DNA of 64,000 bases from a virus, in IMG/VR virus record IMGVR_UViG_3300043788_000023, positions 96,001 to 160,000 of that record; one strand, given 5' to 3'. A model generated the notes under the pieces. The model saw only the letters and a list, made by a program, of their open reading frames with translations, had not been told where the DNA came from and ran no database searches. Below are positions 33,885 to 45,652 of this stretch, piece after piece. Position numbers and translations under genes: made by a program. Numbering within the stretch: position 1 is the first letter of the stretch; each line of letters begins with the position of its first letter.

Positions 33885-34121
33885 TTACTTGCAGCAGCGC
33901 CCGTTCATCGGATGCTGGGCTTCAGGCACCGGGTAGACCGTTGCGCCCTTGTGCTCCTCGCAGGGCCAAACGTGTTCGCTTCCGTCTCGTGCCAACCACT
34001 TGATGCCGTACTGCTCCAGCGGATTGACGACCGCCTCTACCGCCAGTTCCACGTCCCCGATCACGACCTTCTTGCCCATGAGCAGGTTCATCGCCTGCTC
34101 GCCGTTCAACTTGATTTCCAT
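33885..34121 (-). CDS. Small hypothetical protein inside the tRNA operon
   Basis: 78 aa with GGAG RBS, between Thr tRNAs. Confidence 0.6.
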   Translation of the reverse strand: MEIKLNGEQAMNLLMGKKVVIGDVELAVEAVVNPLEQYGIKWLARDGSEHVWPCEEHKGATVYPVPEAQHPMNGRCCK

Positions 34122-34136
34122 TTCATCTCCCGAACT

Positions 34137-34397: not shown

Positions 34398-34549
34398 TGG
34401 TGGAGCGTGCGGGATTCGAACCCGCTTCGGTACCAAACGATCTCAAGCCCATCCAGCTTCGGATTTTTGCCCGTCGCCTTCAACTGCTCGCTTGCGATCC
34501 GGGGAGTCGAACCCCGCGTGAGTCGTCGCTCTAGCCTCCAAGCCGCCCC
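34398..34549 (-). ncRNA. 152-nt tRNA-Ala/tmRNA-like RNA with a second T-arm inserted in place of the anticodon loop
   Basis: GGGGCG/CGCUCC-A-CCA (G3:U70, A73); D-like arm; terminal T-arm; internal CGGGG-UUCGACU-CCCCG. Confidence 0.75.
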
Positions 34550-34558
34550 ACAGAAATT

Positions 34559-34634
34559 TGGTAGGCGCGACTGGGATCGAACCAGTGACCTCAGTCTTAT
34601 CAGGACTGCGCTCTGCCAACTGAGCTACGCGCCT
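34559..34634 (-). tRNA. tRNA-Ile(GAU)
   Basis: Canonical cloverleaf; loop CU-GAU-AA. Confidence 0.95.
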
Positions 34635-34819: not shown

Positions 34820-34854
34820 TGGCTGGGAGTCTCCGGTTTTACCAAAGACTCCCA
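34820..34854 (-). ncRNA. tRNA acceptor-stem minihelix, Gln-like (G-CCA end)
   Basis: UGGGAGUCU...AGACUCCCA-G-CCA; first 6 bp and discriminator match the tRNA-Gln genes. Confidence 0.7.
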
Positions 34855-34856
34855 AC

Positions 34857-34890
34857 TGGAGCCGAAACTCAGCTTTCGCTAACCTTCGGC
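34857..34890 (-). ncRNA. tRNA acceptor-stem minihelix, Thr-like (U-CCA end)
   Basis: GCCGAAG-G-UUAGC-GAAA-GCUGA-G-UUUCGGC-U-CCA (7+5 bp). Confidence 0.7.
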
Positions 34891-34892
34891 AT

Positions 34893-34926
34893 TGGTGGAG
34901 AACCTCAGATTTCGCTGCGATTCTCC
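34893..34926 (-). ncRNA. tRNA acceptor-stem minihelix (A-CCA end)
   Basis: GGAGAAUC...GGUUCUCC-A-CCA. Confidence 0.65.
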
Positions 34927-34932
34927 GTCTTG

Positions 34933-34964
34933 ATTATATTACTGGAAGTCCAGAAATATGTCAA
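34933..34964 (-). promoter_or_regulatory. Sigma70-type promoter of the minihelix/attenuator/tRNA operon
   Basis: TTGACA-N17-TAATAT, with an overlapping TATAAT. Confidence 0.8.
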
Positions 34965-35296: not shown

Positions 35297-36198
35297 TCAA
35301 GCCTTGATTAGCGGTAGTTCCTCGGGCATGATCCCGAAGGTGTCCCACCAGAACTCGGGCTGTTTGTCCCCGTTGTTCCGAAAATAGCGTCGGCCTTCAC
35401 GCAGGGACTTCTCCATGCGACCACGTTCCCCATCCATCCAGCCCATAAACGAACATTCCACGCCCTGCGGGTTGAGACGCATGAATCGCCGGATCAGGCG
35501 ACGGCAGACGTAGTTCCTGCCCCTGTTGCCCGGCACGATGTCCTGCTCGCGGAACACGCACAGGGTGCGGAAATGGTCGCGGGACACCGGGTCTAGGTCC
35601 TGCCGGAAGAGGCTCGTCTCGTCCACGCGGCTTTTGCCTTCCACGATCTGAAGCATGCGCTCGTAGCCGAAGCCCACGTCCACGGAGTGCCCCATCGGGT
35701 TCACGAGATTGCCTACTTCAAGCCCCTCCGGCGTGAACAGTTCCGAGCAGTAGCCGCCCACGGTGCCGTCCGACCAGACGCAATCCGGGTCGTGGCACAC
35801 GGGGAAGACTCCGTTCCAGTGCCGCTCAAAGCCGGACTCCGGGTGGATGTTTACGTGGGAGATCGGGATGCCGAGGTCGCGGACGATGCCCGTCCACATG
35901 TCGCAGTGCCGCTGGTAGTCGTCCGTGCCGAAGCCGAAGCTACCGACCATCTGGAAGAAGGTCAGGTGCGTGCCGTCGCCGACCTCGTCGATGTCATTGG
36001 TGCGGACGCAGTGCTGGATGTTGCCGTGGCTGGTGCCGTCCGGTGTCTGGAACCTTGGCTTGAGTGGCTGCATCCCCGCGCTGATGAAAAGCGTGGTGGG
36101 GTCGTTCTCGGGGATTATGTTGGTGCTTGGTTCAAAGGGGAGACCGTTCTCGCTGAAGTGGCGTCGAAGGGTCTCGTTTAGGCGTCCCGCTGTGACAT
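35297..36198 (-). CDS. Minimal alanyl-tRNA synthetase-like protein (aminoacylation core only; start is out of frame)
   Basis: [39 protein letters not shown], motif 3 [13 protein letters not shown]...[21 protein letters not shown]; RBS-linked ATG at 36198 is one base out of frame. Confidence 0.82.
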
Positions 36199-36227
36199 GG
36201 CATCCTCCTACCCTATGATACCAGAAG

Positions 36228-42305: not shown

Positions 42306-42390
42306 TGGTACGCGGGGGAGGAATCGAACCTCCGACCTCTCCTCATCAAAAGGGGAGCGCTCTGGTACAACCCAACTGAGCTACCCGCGT
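42306..42390 (-). tRNA. Atypical tRNA, anticodon undetermined (expanded D loop and anticodon arm)
   Basis: Acceptor ACGCGGG/CCCGCGU-A-CCA; normal T arm; anticodon region CUCCCC-UUUUGAU-GAGGAG. Confidence 0.65.
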
Positions 42391-42392
42391 AT

Positions 42393-42497
42393 TGGAGCGC
42401 CTGGGGGGATTTGAACCCCCGACCAACGGATTATTTCTCCGCTGCTCTTGCGAGGTCGGTTTTAGAGACCGCCGCTCTACCACTGAGCTACAGGCGC
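42393..42497 (-). tRNA. Amber-suppressor tRNA(CUA), 105 nt, with an extra anticodon-like arm
   Basis: GCGCCUG/CAGGCGC-U-CCA; loop CU-CUA-AA; inserted GCGGA-GAAAUAA-UCCGU arm. Confidence 0.72.
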
Positions 42498-42502
42498 AAA
42501 CT

Positions 42503-42577
42503 TGGCACCCCCGGTGGGATTTTTACCCACATGCGCGGCTTTAGAGGCCACTGCTCTTGCTGTTGAGCTACGGGAGT
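42503..42577 (-). tRNA. Amber-suppressor tRNA(CUA) with degenerate D and T loops
   Basis: ACUCCCG/CGGGGGU-G-CCA; loop CU-CUA-AA; T loop UAAAAAU. Confidence 0.78.
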
Positions 42578-42703
42578 ATGGTGTACGCATCTTATCGCAC
42601 CCACGAGGGCGTAAGGGAGACTTTCTTTCCGGGTGCGCGGCGTACCTGCGATTTTTCCCGTCAGTCGTCTCTGCGAAATATCGTTCGGTGTCTAATACTG
42701 GTG

Positions 42704-42782
42704 TGGTGGGGTCGGCGGGATTTGAACCCGGCGATCAGGGTTTTAGAGACCCCTGCTTTGGGCCAGACTAAGCTACGACCCC
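42704..42782 (-). tRNA. Amber-suppressor tRNA(CUA)
   Basis: GGGGUCG/CGACCCC-A-CCA; loop CU-CUA-AA; T loop UUCAAAU. Confidence 0.85.
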
Positions 42783-42788
42783 GCACCA

Positions 42789-43394
42789 TCAGTATACAGC
42801 CACCTCTTTCAAACTGGCTACCAGCTTCTTGCCGATCTTGTCAATCTGCTTCCACTTGATCTTGAACGTGTCGCTGTCAAGCTGATGCAGCCATGACGCG
42901 TTTGAGTGAATCTCCGCAAGACCCGCAAGGATCAGTGACGGAGCCTCGGGACGCTTGATGAACTCGTCAATGGCGGTTGCGCCCTTGATCGTGTGGATGT
43001 CCATGTCCGCCCGAATCAGGTCGCCGATCTGCTCGTCTTCCGGTGACCAGTGATCGTGCCCGTCAAGTTGTATAGCAGCATGCTTCATCCACGTCTCGTA
43101 ACTGATCTGCGCGTGGTTCGTAAAATGCTGCTTGCCGTCCTCGTCCACAGTGCGACAGAACGGCTTGCCGCAGTCGTGGTAGATCAGGTAGTGCTGCATG
43201 ATGTTCAGAGGAAGCTGGTGCGGCTTCATCGCTGCTGCCCACTCGGGCATGCGCCACTTGAGCTTTGGCTCCGGGCTGATGATGTCCAGATAGCGGGCGA
43301 ATACGTCCATCCCGTGATCCAGCACACTCATTCCGGGGAACTGCTCACACCTCTTCATCGGTTCTTCCAGCTTACACAGATTGGTCTACAGCAT
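42789..43394 (-). CDS. HD-domain phosphohydrolase with an in-frame TAG at codon 3
   Basis: SVLDHG, YHDCGKP, HFTNHA, DMDIH; GAGGAGG-N6-ATG CTG TAG in frame with the ORF. Confidence 0.78.
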
Positions 43395-43572
43395 TGTCTT
43401 CCTCCTCGGCGCAGAACCCGCAGTGCGGGCACGTGACGCCATATAGAATTCCCCAGCAATACGACTTGCCACACTTTTCGCAAGCAAGTCTGTGGGAGCC
43501 GGGGTTTGAGCTTCCACAGCAACAAAGTTTTGTCACCACTGGTGACGGCATAAACACGTCAAGCCAACTCAT
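43372..43572 (-). CDS. Small Cys-rich Zn-ribbon protein
   Basis: CEKC and CPHC; TGATG coupling. Confidence 0.5.
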   Translation of the reverse strand: MSWLDVFMPSPVVTKLCCCGSSNPGSHRLACEKCGKSYCWGILYGVTCPHCGFCAEEEDNAVDQSV

Positions 43573-44237
43573 CAGACATCCTCCTCGGTGCTGCCCTGCT
43601 TGCGGACGCCCCATCCTCCGCGCCAGTATACCTCAAGGGTGTCATCCCACATCGCCTCACGGCGGTCGTTCCAACTGGGCCAGACCTCGTACTCCTTCGC
43701 GCCGATCCCGAGGATGCCACCGTGCTTTTCTTTCTTCGGCGGCAAATCCTTGACTGGGTCTTTGGGGCTGAGACCAAGCTTCCCGTAGGCGTAGTCCGCA
43801 GCGTGGCGGCATTCTTCACCGCCTGGACGAATCTCATCTGCGTGCCTTTTCACCCAGCGGTGGAAGGCGTCCATCTCAACCTTCAGTTCCACGTCGCGGC
43901 TCGCCTTGCGGGTCTCGTCATCGCTCTTGCGGTAGCGCTCGGCGGAGTCCGAGTTGCCCACTTCCGAGTAGTCAATCTCGGCGTCGGGGGTATCCCACAG
44001 CAGATCGGTGATGCTCATTGGCGAGATCACGACCTTTGATCCTTTGCTGGTGTACTTACCGCCCACGAGATCGTAGTAGGGCTTCTTCGCCGGGTCACGC
44101 TTCAGCACTTGCAGGCGTCCGTCCCAGTACGCAGGCTCGGTGGTCACCGTGAAGATGTCCACGTTCTCCACGCAGCACTCAAGCTCACCGCTCGGATCGG
44201 CTTCCTGTAATTCCGCTATTAAGTCCTTGGTTTTCAT
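43572..44237 (-). CDS. Hypothetical protein
   Basis: MKTKDLIAELQEADPSGE...PAYWDG; ATGA coupling to the Pth2-like gene. Confidence 0.7.
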   Translation of the reverse strand: MKTKDLIAELQEADPSGELECCVENVDIFTVTTEPAYWDGRLQVLKRDPAKKPYYDLVGGKYTSKGSKVVISPMSITDLLWDTPDAEIDYSEVGNSDSAERYRKSDDETRKASRDVELKVEMDAFHRWVKRHADEIRPGGEECRHAADYAYGKLGLSPKDPVKDLPPKKEKHGGILGIGAKEYEVWPSWNDRREAMWDDTLEVYWRGGWGVRKQGSTEEDV

Positions 44238-44602
44238 TGTATTGCTCCTGTTGCGTCCGGCTCGTGCCAGAGGCGGTAATTGGACAGCGCCCGGCGCTGC
44301 ACGCCCTCAATGGGGACGGTGGCAACGGCAGACAGACCCATATTGAAGTCCGGCTCGTAGAATACCTGATGACCGATGTCGTGGGAACGCAGCTTCTCAA
44401 TGACACGGAAGAGCGCCGCCTTGTCGGGCACACCAATGGTGATGCACGATGGGGTCACGTCTAAATCTTGGGGTTGAGACAAACGGCGGGCGACCTCAAA
44501 GGTCGCGTGATTGGACTGAACCAACTGTTGCGCAAGGCTGATGTCCTGCCTCACGAACACGTAAAAGTAGGGGTGTTGCTGGGAAACCTAGTGCTGTGAC
44601 AT
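44234..44602 (-). CDS. Pth2-like peptidyl-tRNA hydrolase with an in-frame TAG at codon 5
   Basis: YFYVFVRQDISLAQQLVQSNHA...FYEPD...LSAVAT.P; ATG TCA CAG CAC TAG in frame; GGAGG upstream. Confidence 0.75.
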
Positions 44603-45314: not shown

Positions 45315-45332
45315 TTCTGTATGATACCACCA

Positions 45333-45361
45333 GAAACAAAAAAGCCCAGCCGAAGCTGGGC
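45333..45361 (-). terminator. tmRNA terminator
   Basis: GCCCAGC-UUCG-GCUGGGC plus UUUUUUGUUU. Confidence 0.85.
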
Positions 45362-45652
45362 GAATTTTGTGGTGTTGAGGATCAGAGACACCGTCTCTGG
45401 GCACGCAGGTTTTTAAGCTGCGGCTGCCATTGCCATTGCCTTTGGAGCAGTGACGTTTAGTTGTTTCCATCCTGATTTTCGAGGGTATGGTACCTCGGGT
45501 CGCTAGCTCCGTCCTCGCACGTCTTCCGTCGAAACCGATTACCCCCGCAGTGGTGGAGGTAGAGGGAATTGAACCCTCGTCCGAAAAGACTGTCTGGTGC
45601 CTTTTACCCCCACACTTACCCTTCGGCAGTCTACAGGGGCTTACGACCATCT
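45362..45652 (-). ncRNA. ssrA: Circularly permuted (two-piece) tmRNA; tag (A)VTAPKAMAMAAAA*
   Basis: T-arm + UACCUCC-A-CCA (ending 45551) precedes GGGGGUA...GGUUUCGAC (starting 45546); G3:U70; tag ORF 45454-45413. Confidence 0.88.

What the first reader, a model, noticed from the sequence alone, without database searches (positions are those of the whole stretch)
34398..34549. 152-nt alanine-identity tRNA-like RNA whose anticodon loop is replaced by a domain carrying a second T-arm
Seen: acceptor GGGGCG/CGCUCC with G3:U70 and A73-CCA, a D-like arm (GCUU/GAGC), an extended stem GACGA-CUCA/UGAG-A-UCGUU enclosing ~75 nt including CGGGG-UUCGACU-CCCCG, and a normal terminal T-arm. It lies inside the attenuated tRNA operon. 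Established: G3:U70 is the AlaRS determinant shared by tRNA-Ala and tmRNA. Inference: a mini-tmRNA-like rescue RNA or a tRNA mimic/decoy; I cannot place it in a known class.
Basis: partly seen in the sequence, partly recalled or inferred. Interest (0 to 1): 0.75.

Follow-up and report, generated by a model that had tools for sequence, protein, structure and literature searches.

The report
Alanine-type tRNA-like RNA in jumbo phage
A giant phage carries, inside its tRNA operon, a conserved 152-base RNA with the alanine-accepting end of a tRNA but a different, non-decoding body, next to the phage's own miniature alanyl-tRNA synthetase; its job is unknown.

Summary
The feature is real, lies on the minus strand (34549 to 34398), and is conserved. 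The window is part of a 170-kb jumbo-phage record.

Four full copies (117-152 nt) and one copy cut by a contig end all sit right after tRNA-Ile(GAU) in syntenic operons. Its conserved ends are as conserved as the neighbouring tRNA, and more than the coding DNA nearby.

Confirmed:
- an invariant acceptor GGGGCG/CGCUCC with G3:U70 and A73, and CCA (CCG in one copy)
- a terminal T-arm with two compensatory pairs
- an internal T-loop hairpin with one compensatory pair

Covariation and folding energies favour a long hairpin (P5, three compensatory pairs, variable tip), a helix (P2) joining the 5' region to the linker before the T-arm, and a small hairpin (P3).

ARAGORN and every Rfam family fail. 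tmRNA scores 13-16 bits against a threshold of 47.

A roughly 300-residue AlaRS catalytic core is encoded 0.75 kb upstream. The phage also has its own two-piece tmRNA.

Best reading: a processed, alanine-chargeable, non-decoding tRNA-like RNA. Its role (decoy, sink or rescue) is inferred only. No expression data could be obtained.

Side finding: the mini-AlaRS family needs a conserved frame change after a 6-codon MSQRDA-stop start.

The parts
34398..34549 (-). The whole tRNA-like RNA gene (152 nt). RNA position p equals window coordinate 34550 minus p.
   Evidence: Sequence. Homologues. Model R1 scores it 140.3 bits.
34543..34549 (-). P1 acceptor, 5' strand GGGGCGG (RNA 1-7); G3 pairs with U70.
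   Evidence: Invariant in 4 of 4 copies, with 6 standard pairs.
34398..34408 (-). P1 acceptor 3' strand ACGCUCC (RNA 142-148), discriminator A (149) and encoded CCA (150-152).
   Evidence: The L087 copy has CCG instead of CCA.
34532..34542 (-). 5' junction and 5' strand of helix P2 (RNA 8-18, CUUGGAGGCUA), including G11 and G12.
   Evidence: RNAalifold consensus. The tmRNA model aligns the L006 equivalent to the D-loop analogue. Pair 15:118 changes G:U to G:C; no change on both sides.
34520..34531 (-). P3 small hairpin GAGC-GACG-(A/G)CUC (RNA 19-30). It is weakened in this copy by A27.
   Evidence: There is no covariation; the pair 22:27 is C:G in three copies and C/A here.
34500..34516 (-). 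P4 internal T-loop hairpin CGGGG-UUCGACU-CCCCG (RNA 34-50).
   Evidence: Pair 36:48 is G:C in three copies and A:U in L006. The loop is invariant.
34439..34499 (-). P5 long hairpin (RNA 51-111): a 10-pair base with one mismatch, and a tip of variable length (41 nt here, 20 nt in L004, a 6-nt loop in L006).
   Evidence: Three pairs changed on both sides (52:110, 53:109, 54:108).
34426..34438 (-). Conserved linker GUUUGGUACCGAA (RNA 112-124); positions 115-123 form the 3' strand of P2.
   Evidence: energies.
34409..34425 (-). Terminal T-arm GCGGG-UUCGAAU-CCCGC (RNA 125-141).
   Evidence: Two pairs changed on both sides in L006 (GACGG/CCGUC).
34559..34634 (-). tRNA-Ile(GAU) immediately upstream; the element follows it in every copy.
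35297..36223 (-). Mini-AlaRS gene. This is the open AlaRS frame; the annotated ATG is at 36073, but homology starts about 45 codons earlier.
   Evidence: Pfam tRNA-synt_2c 1.8e-16. PDB AlaRS hits 1e-12 for the protein and 9e-30 for the family profile. The family has 396 proteins.
36178..36198 (-). Ribosome-binding site followed by ATG and a 6-codon frame, MSQRDA-stop, lying +1 relative to the AlaRS frame. It is the probable true start, which then needs a -1 or +2 frame change.
34936..34964 (-). Promoter-like site TTGACA-17-TAATAT for the tRNA operon.
45322..45644 (-). The phage's own two-piece (permuted) tmRNA, another alanine acceptor.
   Evidence: ARAGORN; Rfam RF04321 at 70.6 bits.

Best explanation
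It is a real, conserved gene for a non-decoding tRNA-like RNA of a small jumbo-phage lineage.

Structure:
- It keeps a complete tRNA 'top half': an acceptor stem identical over its first five pairs to tRNA-Ala and tmRNA (G3:U70, A73), CCA in three of four copies, and a canonical T-arm.
- The D and anticodon arms are replaced by a closed body.
- In that body, helix P2 leaves the acceptor/T junction, as in the tRNA-like domain of tmRNA.
- P2 opens into a junction carrying a small hairpin (P3), a second T-loop hairpin (P4) and a long hairpin with a variable tip (P5). P5 starts at the very next base after P4, with no linker.

Inferred mechanism:
- It is transcribed with the tRNA operon.
- It is cut out by the tRNA-processing enzymes (RNase P at G1, 3' trimming and CCA repair).
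- It is charged with alanine, because AlaRS reads only the acceptor stem. The enzyme could be the host's or the phage's own roughly 300-residue AlaRS core, encoded 0.75 kb upstream.
- Without an anticodon arm in tRNA geometry it cannot read codons.
- It therefore acts as an alanine-accepting mimic of the tRNA acceptor end. It may be a sink or decoy for factors that bind or attack tRNA ends, or a substrate of a non-decoding pathway.

Shown here: conservation, the structured core, the identity nucleotides and the neighbouring AlaRS-like gene. Inferred only: processing, charging and the cellular role.
For: - Four full copies and one truncated copy sit at the same operon slot.
- Identity of the conserved 5' and 3' ends is 85.5-93.5%, against 89.5-92.2% for the adjacent tRNA-Ile and 77% for the AlaRS coding DNA.
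- Six pairs keep pairing through changes on both sides, against 1.7 expected in shuffles (0 of 500 shuffles reach 6). 95.9% of cells are paired, against 41-51% when partners are slid.
- RNAalifold independently gives P1, P2, P3, P4, P5 and the T-arm.
- This fold beats the alternatives by 1-17 kcal/mol in all four copies.
- The acceptor, G3:U70 and A73 are invariant, while the other helices vary.
- Spacers of 9 and 12 nt to the flanking tRNAs match the rest of the array.
- ARAGORN and the Rfam tRNA model do not call it.
- The AlaRS-like gene upstream has the class II motifs.
- In a distant relative, the same mini-AlaRS sits between two canonical G3:U70 tRNA-Ala genes.
- A natural mini-AlaRS is known to charge acceptor microhelices (PMC10036535).
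Against: - There is no expression, end-mapping or charging data.
- Only four sequences, about 66-94% identical, are known. P2 and P3 rest on invariant columns plus energy, not on compensatory changes.
- The window's own copy weakens both (G14, A27).
- The closest relative by AlaRS among loci that span this slot (L002, 82%) lacks the element and the preceding tRNA-Ile. The mini-AlaRS family is far wider (about 400 proteins) than the element. So the two are not obligate partners.
- The record is about 54% complete, so a canonical tRNA-Ala or SmpB gene may lie elsewhere.
- The specific role (decoy, sink or donor) has no direct support.
Confidence: 0.5

Rival explanations
1. It is a mini-tmRNA. 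It would be a stand-alone tRNA-like domain that, charged with alanine and bound by host SmpB and EF-Tu, enters stalled ribosomes and accepts the nascent chain without adding a tag.
For: - The topology of acceptor, T-arm and a helix leaving the junction is that of the tmRNA tRNA-like domain.
- The tmRNA model aligns the shortest copy end to end (16 bits, E = 1.4e-4 in a 398-nt search). It places GGAUGCUA on the conserved GGAUUCGA.
- The acceptor equals that of tmRNA over five pairs.
Against: - Scores are 13-16 bits against a gathering score of 47.
- The conserved UUCGAC and GGAC junction motifs of tmRNA are not in register.
- There is no conserved reading frame or pseudoknot. The only region long enough (the P5 tip) shrinks to a 6-nt loop in L006.
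- The phage already encodes a complete two-piece tmRNA.
- No SmpB gene is found in the 170-kb record.
Confidence: 0.15
2. It is a decoding tRNA with an expanded body. On this reading P3 is the D-arm, P4 the anticodon arm (loop UUCGACU, anticodon CGA) and P5 a class II long variable arm. With alanine identity it would read the serine codon UCG as alanine.
For: - P4 is a 5-bp stem with a 7-nt loop and U at position 33, followed directly by a long arm, as in class II tRNAs.
- The start of P5 (UCGCAAG..GAGCAG plus a CGGnnAAAnnUCCG hairpin) resembles the long variable arm of the phage's 102-nt tRNA(CUA).
- Relatives carry other tRNA genes with large insertions.
Against: - The loop fits the T-loop signature at every diagnostic position (U54, U55, C56, purine 57, A58, closing G53:C61). 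It has C at position 37, where tRNAs almost always have a purine.
- The extra 9-pair helix P2 would displace the anticodon from the CCA end.
- Neither ARAGORN (introns allowed) nor the Rfam tRNA model calls it.
Confidence: 0.05
3. It is a rearranged tRNA relic kept only as a processing spacer in the polycistronic tRNA transcript. The acceptor and T-arm would be retained so that RNase P and the 3' nucleases can cut; the rest would have no function.
For: - It is missing from several close relatives (L002, L008/L010, L026).
- It is replaced by another tRNA-like RNA in L005 and L019.
- The P5 tip is highly variable.
- A homing endonuclease gene is inserted next to it in L018.
Against: - Interior helices P4 and P5 keep pairing through four compensatory changes.
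- The interior single-stranded segments are nearly invariant.
- The alanine identity nucleotides are invariant. A spacer would need none of this.
Confidence: 0.12
4. It is a protein-binding scaffold or regulator. Its two tRNA 'top halves' (P1 with the T-arm, P5 with P4) would bind the phage mini-AlaRS or tRNA-modifying or tRNA-targeting host proteins. Charging would be irrelevant.
For: - P4 abuts P5 with no linker, like the T-arm and acceptor stack in tRNA.
- Three very stable NCCA-ended minihelices in the operon leader show that the operon uses acceptor mimics (z = -8.0).
Against: No partner has been identified. The invariant G3:U70, A73 and CCA argue that the free 3' end matters.
Confidence: 0.15

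Closest known systems
tRNA-like domain of tmRNA (Rfam RF00023, and RF04321 for two-piece forms)
   Same: GGGGC/GCUCC acceptor with G3:U70, A73-CCA and a canonical T-arm. There is no D stem, and a helix leaves the junction where the anticodon stem would be. The tmRNA model aligns the L006 copy globally.
   Different: It scores 13-16 bits against 47. It is 117-152 nt rather than about 350 nt. It has no pseudoknots, no conserved tag frame and no UUCGAC/GGAC junction motifs. Its body carries a second T-loop hairpin.
tRNA-Ala
   Same: The full acceptor identity set (G1:C72, G2:C71, G3:U70, G4:C69, A73), the T-arm, and a place in a tRNA array with tRNA-like spacers.
   Different: It has no recognisable D-arm or anticodon arm and is twice the length. 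ARAGORN and RF00005 do not call it.
Phage T4 species 1 and species 2 RNAs (rnaC, rnaD)
   Same: These are small stable RNAs of 139 and 119 nt inside a phage tRNA gene cluster. They are annotated only as 'small, stable RNA'. rnaC ends in a T-arm-like hairpin.
   Different: There is no sequence or model similarity beyond the T-arm (R1 gives 16.3 bits, like ordinary tRNAs). T4 rnaC shows no G3:U70 acceptor.
Tupanvirus mini-AlaRS with acceptor microhelix substrates (PMC10036535)
   Same: [quoted passage not shown] This gives a precedent for the proposed pairing of enzyme and RNA.
   Different: The phage enzyme is smaller still (about 300 residues) and unrelated in origin. No dedicated tRNA-like partner RNA was described for the Tupanvirus enzyme.
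YrlA / bacterial Y RNA-like (RF02553) and mascRNA (RF01684)
   Same: They are tRNA-like modules with a T-loop in non-decoding small RNAs.
   Different: Scores are 13.2 against 69 and 15.6 against 42.5. Only the T hairpin matches. Those RNAs are not aminoacyl acceptors with G3:U70.

Membership tests
tRNA (RF00005) | Cloverleaf with D-arm and anticodon arm; model score of at least 29 bits; called by a tRNA finder. | tested here: not met
   There is no RF00005 hit on 34398-34549, even at E up to 10. ARAGORN does not call it, with or without introns.
tRNA-Ala identity set | G3:U70 wobble pair, A73, G2:C71 and G4:C69 in a 7-bp acceptor ending in CCA. | tested here: met
   All are present and invariant in 4 of 4 copies. 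The seventh pair is a G/A mismatch.
tRNA-Ala identity set | Actual aminoacylation with alanine. | not testable with these tools
   This needs an in vitro or in vivo charging assay.
tmRNA (RF00023 / RF04321) | Model score at or above the gathering score of 47 bits. | tested here: not met
   The window copy scores 13.0 and 11.3 bits. The L006 copy scores 16 bits.
tmRNA (RF00023 / RF04321) | mRNA-like domain: a conserved tag reading frame with a stop codon, flanked by pseudoknots. | tested here: not met
   The only variable-length interior (the P5 tip) is 41, 41, 20 and 6 nt in the four copies. By my own reading, a 14-codon frame ending in UGA exists only in the window copy and L087, which are 94% identical to each other.
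tmRNA (RF00023 / RF04321) | tRNA-like domain: acceptor with G3:U70, T-arm, a D-loop analogue containing GG, and helix P2 leaving the junction. | tested here: inconclusive
   The topology fits. P2 has no compensatory support, and the UUCGAC/GGAC motifs are absent in register.
tmRNA (RF00023 / RF04321) | Works with SmpB. | not testable with these tools
   No SmpB (PF01668) is found in the 170-kb record, which is 54% complete. Host SmpB cannot be assessed.
YrlA / Y RNA-like (RF02553) | Model score of at least 69 bits; a Ro-binding stem formed by the two ends. | tested here: not met
   It scores 13.2 bits, E = 7.6, and the hit is offset from the element.
T4-type stable RNAs of phage tRNA clusters (rnaC/rnaD) | Sequence or structure homology to T4 rnaC or rnaD. 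| tested here: not met
   R1 on the T4 locus gives 16.3 bits on the 3' part of rnaC, the same range as the T4 tRNAs.
AlaRS (Pfam PF01411), for the neighbouring gene | Class II catalytic core with motif 2 Arg, motif 3 GxGxER and the alanine-pocket residues. | tested here: met
   Pfam gives 60.3 bits against a cut-off of 30.3. The family profile hits AlaRS structures at 9e-30 over chain residues 9-361. Invariant residues are R74, N172, V174, D182, G184, G186, E188 and R189. Assigning these residues to the alanine pocket and to motif 3 rests on my recollection of E. coli AlaRS.

The most novel reading that the evidence does not exclude
Some jumbo phages may encode a previously undescribed class of aminoacylatable, non-decoding 'acceptor-end' RNAs. 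These would be built on the two identity systems that need only the acceptor stem.

- One type is this RNA, with alanine identity (G3:U70).
- The other occupies the same operon slot in two nearly identical relatives. It is a 90-nt RNA with a histidine-type G-1:C73 acceptor.

The alanine type would work with the phage's own minimal AlaRS. That enzyme's synthesis would itself be gated by a frame change at an Ala-stop site. Together they would form a phage module that senses or buffers alanine charging, or that protects tRNA 3' ends from host attack.
Probability: 0.2. Interest if true: 0.85.

Novelty: new variant of a known kind. Interest (0 to 1): 0.6.

Why it matters
Phage tRNA clusters have long been known to hold stable RNAs whose functions are unknown. 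The T4 species 1 and 2 RNAs, for example, are still annotated only as "small, stable RNA".

This RNA offers a tractable case for three reasons:
- It has a clear, testable biochemical handle, alanine identity.
- It has a candidate dedicated enzyme next door.
- Its conserved body contains a second T-loop.

If it is charged but does not decode, it would show that phages deploy aminoacyl-RNA mimics beyond tRNA and tmRNA. That bears on how giant phages control or shield host translation. The adjacent mini-AlaRS, with its family-wide out-of-frame start, may be a new example of recoding-based autoregulation of a synthetase.

Tried and rejected
Searches that found nothing more:
- Pattern scans for further copies returned nothing in three viral-contig scans, one metagenome scan and one genome-contig scan.
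- nhmmer and model R1 over 97 related loci found only the four copies.
- A BLAST of the operon against INPHARED phages hit only ordinary tRNAs.

Expression:
- Two encoding-contig look-ups returned no DNA.

Folds rejected:
- The unconstrained MFE pairs half of P4 with half of the T-arm. I rejected this because the compensatory changes in L006 lie within each hairpin and would break the cross-pairing.

Readings rejected:
- Intron-containing tRNA: ARAGORN with introns makes no call, and no excision restores a cloverleaf.
- A tag frame AVEGDGQKSEAGWA-stop, which I read by eye in the window copy: it lies in the variable P5 tip and is absent from L004 and L006.

Other checks:
- Earlier notes described Pth2-like and HD genes near the suppressor tRNAs. 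Pfam found no family at E up to 0.01 in the ORFs as read by table 11, so I did not build on them.
- Literature searches for phage tRNA-like decoys and T4 species 1 RNA found nothing that describes this RNA.

Full report
**What the window is.** The window is bases 96001-160000 of a 169.6-kb IMG/VR virus record judged about 54% complete, so it comes from a jumbo phage. The finding lies on the minus strand. The RNA reads from 34549 down to 34398.

It sits in a tRNA array:
- It starts 9 nt after tRNA-Ile(GAU) (34634-34559).
- It ends 12 nt before the next tRNA (34385-34311).
- Thr and Gln tRNAs follow.
- A promoter-like TTGACA-17-TAATAT site lies at 34964-34936.

**Is it a known RNA?** No.
- ARAGORN does not call it, with or without introns allowed.
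- At gathering thresholds Rfam finds only the flanking tRNAs and a two-piece tmRNA elsewhere in the window.
- At E up to 10, the only hits on the element are the two 17-nt T-type hairpins. They score 10-16 bits with the tmRNA, permuted-tmRNA and mascRNA models.
- A YrlA hit of 13.2 bits is offset from the element.
- The fold of the single sequence is not unusual (z = -1.45). The sequence alone therefore proves little.

**Homologues.** A BLAST against deposited phages gave only ordinary tRNA matches.

The gene upstream turned out to be informative. ORF 35297-36073 (minus strand) matches the AlaRS catalytic family:
- Pfam PF01411 at 1.8e-16.
- PDB AlaRS chains at 1e-12.

Using it as an anchor, I collected 97 related loci. 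The order mini-AlaRS, cold-shock protein, leader, tRNA-Ile(GAU), further tRNAs, GH16 recurs in them.

Copies of the element follow tRNA-Ile in:
- L087 (152 nt)
- L004 (131 nt)
- L006 (117 nt)
- L018, where only the 5' end is present at the contig edge, after an inserted ORF that looks to me like a homing endonuclease gene; it was not searched against any family library

The element is absent from L002/L020, L008/L010 and L026. In L005 and L019 a different tRNA-like RNA takes its place.

Five pattern scans of the public collections found no further copy.

**Conservation.** Between the window and L004, L006 and L087:

| Segment | Identity |
|---|---|
| Element's conserved 5' and 3' ends | 85.5-93.5% |
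| Adjacent tRNA-Ile | 89.5-92.2% |
| AlaRS coding DNA | 77% |

Covariance model R1, built from the four copies, scores them 134-152 bits. Nothing else in 656 kb of related phage DNA exceeds 25.5 bits, and those weaker hits are ordinary tRNAs.

**Structure.**
- The acceptor is invariant.
- The internal hairpin has one compensatory pair (G:C to A:U).
- The terminal T-arm has two.

Its 3' strand instead belongs to a long hairpin, P5 (51-60 with 102-111).
- P5 has three pairs that change on both sides: A:U to U:A, U:A to C:G, and C:G to U:A.
- Its tip varies from a 6-nt loop to 41 nt.

For my model as a whole:
- 95.9% of cells pair, against 41-51% when partners are slid.
- Six pairs covary, against 1.7 in shuffles (0 of 500 shuffles reach 6).

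RNAalifold independently returns the same core and adds two helices:
- P2 (9-12 and 14-18 with 115-123)
- P3 (19-22 with 27-30)

With only the covariation-supported helices fixed, free folding recovers P2 and P3 in three of the four copies.

P2 and P3 lie in nearly invariant columns, so they rest on energy and one-sided changes only. The window copy weakens both (G14, A27).

The unconstrained MFE pairs P4 with the T-arm. That pairing is incompatible with the within-hairpin compensations in L006.

**Resulting anatomy.**
- P1: acceptor, with G3:U70.
- A short junction containing GG.
- P2.
- An inner junction with P3, P4 and P5. P4 has a perfect T-loop signature: UUCGACU closed by G:C.
- P5 begins at the base right after P4, as the acceptor strand follows the T-arm in tRNA.
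- A conserved linker, the T-arm, A73 and CCA. One copy has CCG.

The outer part has the topology of the tmRNA tRNA-like domain. The tmRNA model aligns the shortest copy end to end, but at only 16 bits against a threshold of 47.

**Context bearing on function.**

*The upstream gene.*
- It belongs to a family of about 400 proteins of 250-350 residues, found on contigs up to 448 kb.
- Its profile matches AlaRS aminoacylation-domain structures at 9e-30, from chain residue 9 to about 361.
- The class II motif 2 and motif 3 residues and the alanine-pocket residues are invariant.
- In a distant member (L007) the gene sits between two canonical G3:U70 tRNA-Ala genes.
- A virus mini-AlaRS that charges acceptor microhelices is documented (PMC10036535).

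*Other alanine acceptors in the record.*
- The phage has its own complete two-piece tmRNA.
- No canonical tRNA-Ala and no SmpB gene were found in the partial record.

*Links that do not hold.*
- The element is not an obligate partner of the enzyme. The enzyme family is far wider, and a close relative (L002) lacks the element.

**Explanation.** I conclude that this is a genuine tRNA-like RNA gene. The inferred steps are as follows:
- It is processed like a tRNA.
- It is charged with alanine through acceptor-only recognition.
- It cannot decode.
- Its role is a mimic, sink or decoy of the tRNA acceptor end, or a rescue-type substrate.

Only the conservation, the structure, the identity nucleotides and the neighbouring gene are shown.

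**Rivals.**

| Reading | Confidence | Main objection |
|---|---|---|
| Mini-tmRNA | 0.15 | Low model scores, no conserved tag frame, and the phage has its own tmRNA |
| Protein-binding scaffold or regulator | 0.15 | No partner identified; invariant G3:U70, A73 and CCA suggest the free 3' end matters |
| Processing spacer or relic | 0.12 | Interior covariation and an invariant identity set |
| Decoding class II-like tRNA reading UCG | 0.05 | T-loop signature of P4, C at position 37, and the extra helix P2 |

**Novelty.** No Rfam family and no paper found describes it.

The nearest precedents are the tmRNA tRNA-like domain and the T4 species 1 and 2 RNAs. The T4 RNAs lie in the T4 tRNA cluster and are annotated only as small stable RNAs.

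I class it as a new variant of a known kind, with moderate interest. The evidence is limited by having four sequences and no expression data.

**Side findings.** In 36 of 44 distinct mini-AlaRS loci, a ribosome-binding site and ATG lie one base out of frame.
- They open a 4-7 codon frame (MSQRDA-stop, MSQLNA-stop, MRRLA-stop). In most loci it ends Ala-stop; in some, one or two further codons follow the Ala.
- About 24 loci have no in-frame ATG, GTG or TTG before the conserved motif 1.
- MSQRDA resembles the AlaRS N-terminus MSKSTA as I recall it from E. coli.
- The family therefore seems to need a -1 or +2 frame change right after an alanine codon.

The operon leader holds three very stable NCCA-ended minihelices (z = -8.0).

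Noticed in passing
window 36178-36223 (minus), and L003-L095: The mini-AlaRS genes have no in-frame start. A conserved GGAGG-N5-ATG lies in the +1 frame and opens a 4-7 codon frame (MSQRDA-stop here), usually ending Ala-stop. 36 of 44 distinct loci show it, and about 24 have no in-frame ATG, GTG or TTG. MSQRDA resembles the AlaRS N-terminus as I recall it from E. coli. This suggests a conserved programmed -1 or +2 frame change, possibly responsive to alanine charging.
   Followed up: partly
window 34820-34926 (minus): Three consecutive very stable hairpins are each followed by NCCA (…GUUCUCC-ACCA, …UUUCGGC-UCCA, …CUCCCAG-CCA), between the promoter and the leader ORF. MFE is -61.1 kcal/mol against -31.1 for shuffles (z = -8.0). 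They recur, with changed stems, in L002.
   Followed up: partly
L005:3280-3369 and L019:2777-2866: At the slot the element occupies, these relatives carry a different 90-nt tRNA-like RNA. Its 8-bp acceptor GGUGACGG/CCGUCACC-CCA has the bacterial tRNA-His signature G-1:C73. ARAGORN does not call it. Only two near-identical copies are known.
   Followed up: partly
window 42306-42782 (minus): There are three tRNAs with a CUA (amber-reading) anticodon. One (42396-42497, 102 nt) has a roughly 33-nt variable arm whose sequence resembles the start of the element's P5. Relatives keep two or three such tRNAs. Whether TAG is recoded in this phage was not examined.
   Followed up: no
L004:11823-11998, L006:11631-11790, L087:2362-2449: A segment of about 176 nt directly downstream of the element is 87-95% conserved in the relatives and absent from the window. 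It has several hairpins with GNRA-like loops and repeated AAGUCCGGG motifs, and no Rfam match.
   Followed up: no
L018:3900-4448: An ORF of about 500 nt that looks to me like a homing endonuclease gene (Cys-rich; not searched against Pfam) is inserted between tRNA-Ile and the element in the relative with the closest AlaRS among loci that span this slot (89%).
   Followed up: no
L008:3213-3372 (also in L010 and L041): A 160-nt tRNA-like gene (GCGCGGG…CCCGCGC-ACCA) has a canonical start (UAGCUCAGUGGG) and T-arm but large insertions in the D-loop and beyond. Expanded tRNA-like genes seem common in this phage group.
   Followed up: no
L007:5970-7080: In a distant jumbo-phage relative with 37 tRNA genes, the mini-AlaRS gene lies between tRNA-Ala(GGC) and tRNA-Ala(UGC). 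Both are canonical, with G3:U70.
   Followed up: partly
window 33885-34130 (minus): An 81-codon ORF sits inside the tRNA array, between tRNA-Thr(UGU) and tRNA-Thr(GGU). It has no Pfam match.
   Followed up: no
window 42789-44560 (minus): Earlier notes describe ORFs here as Pth2-like and HD-domain genes. Read by table 11, they gave no Pfam family at E up to 0.01.
   Followed up: partly
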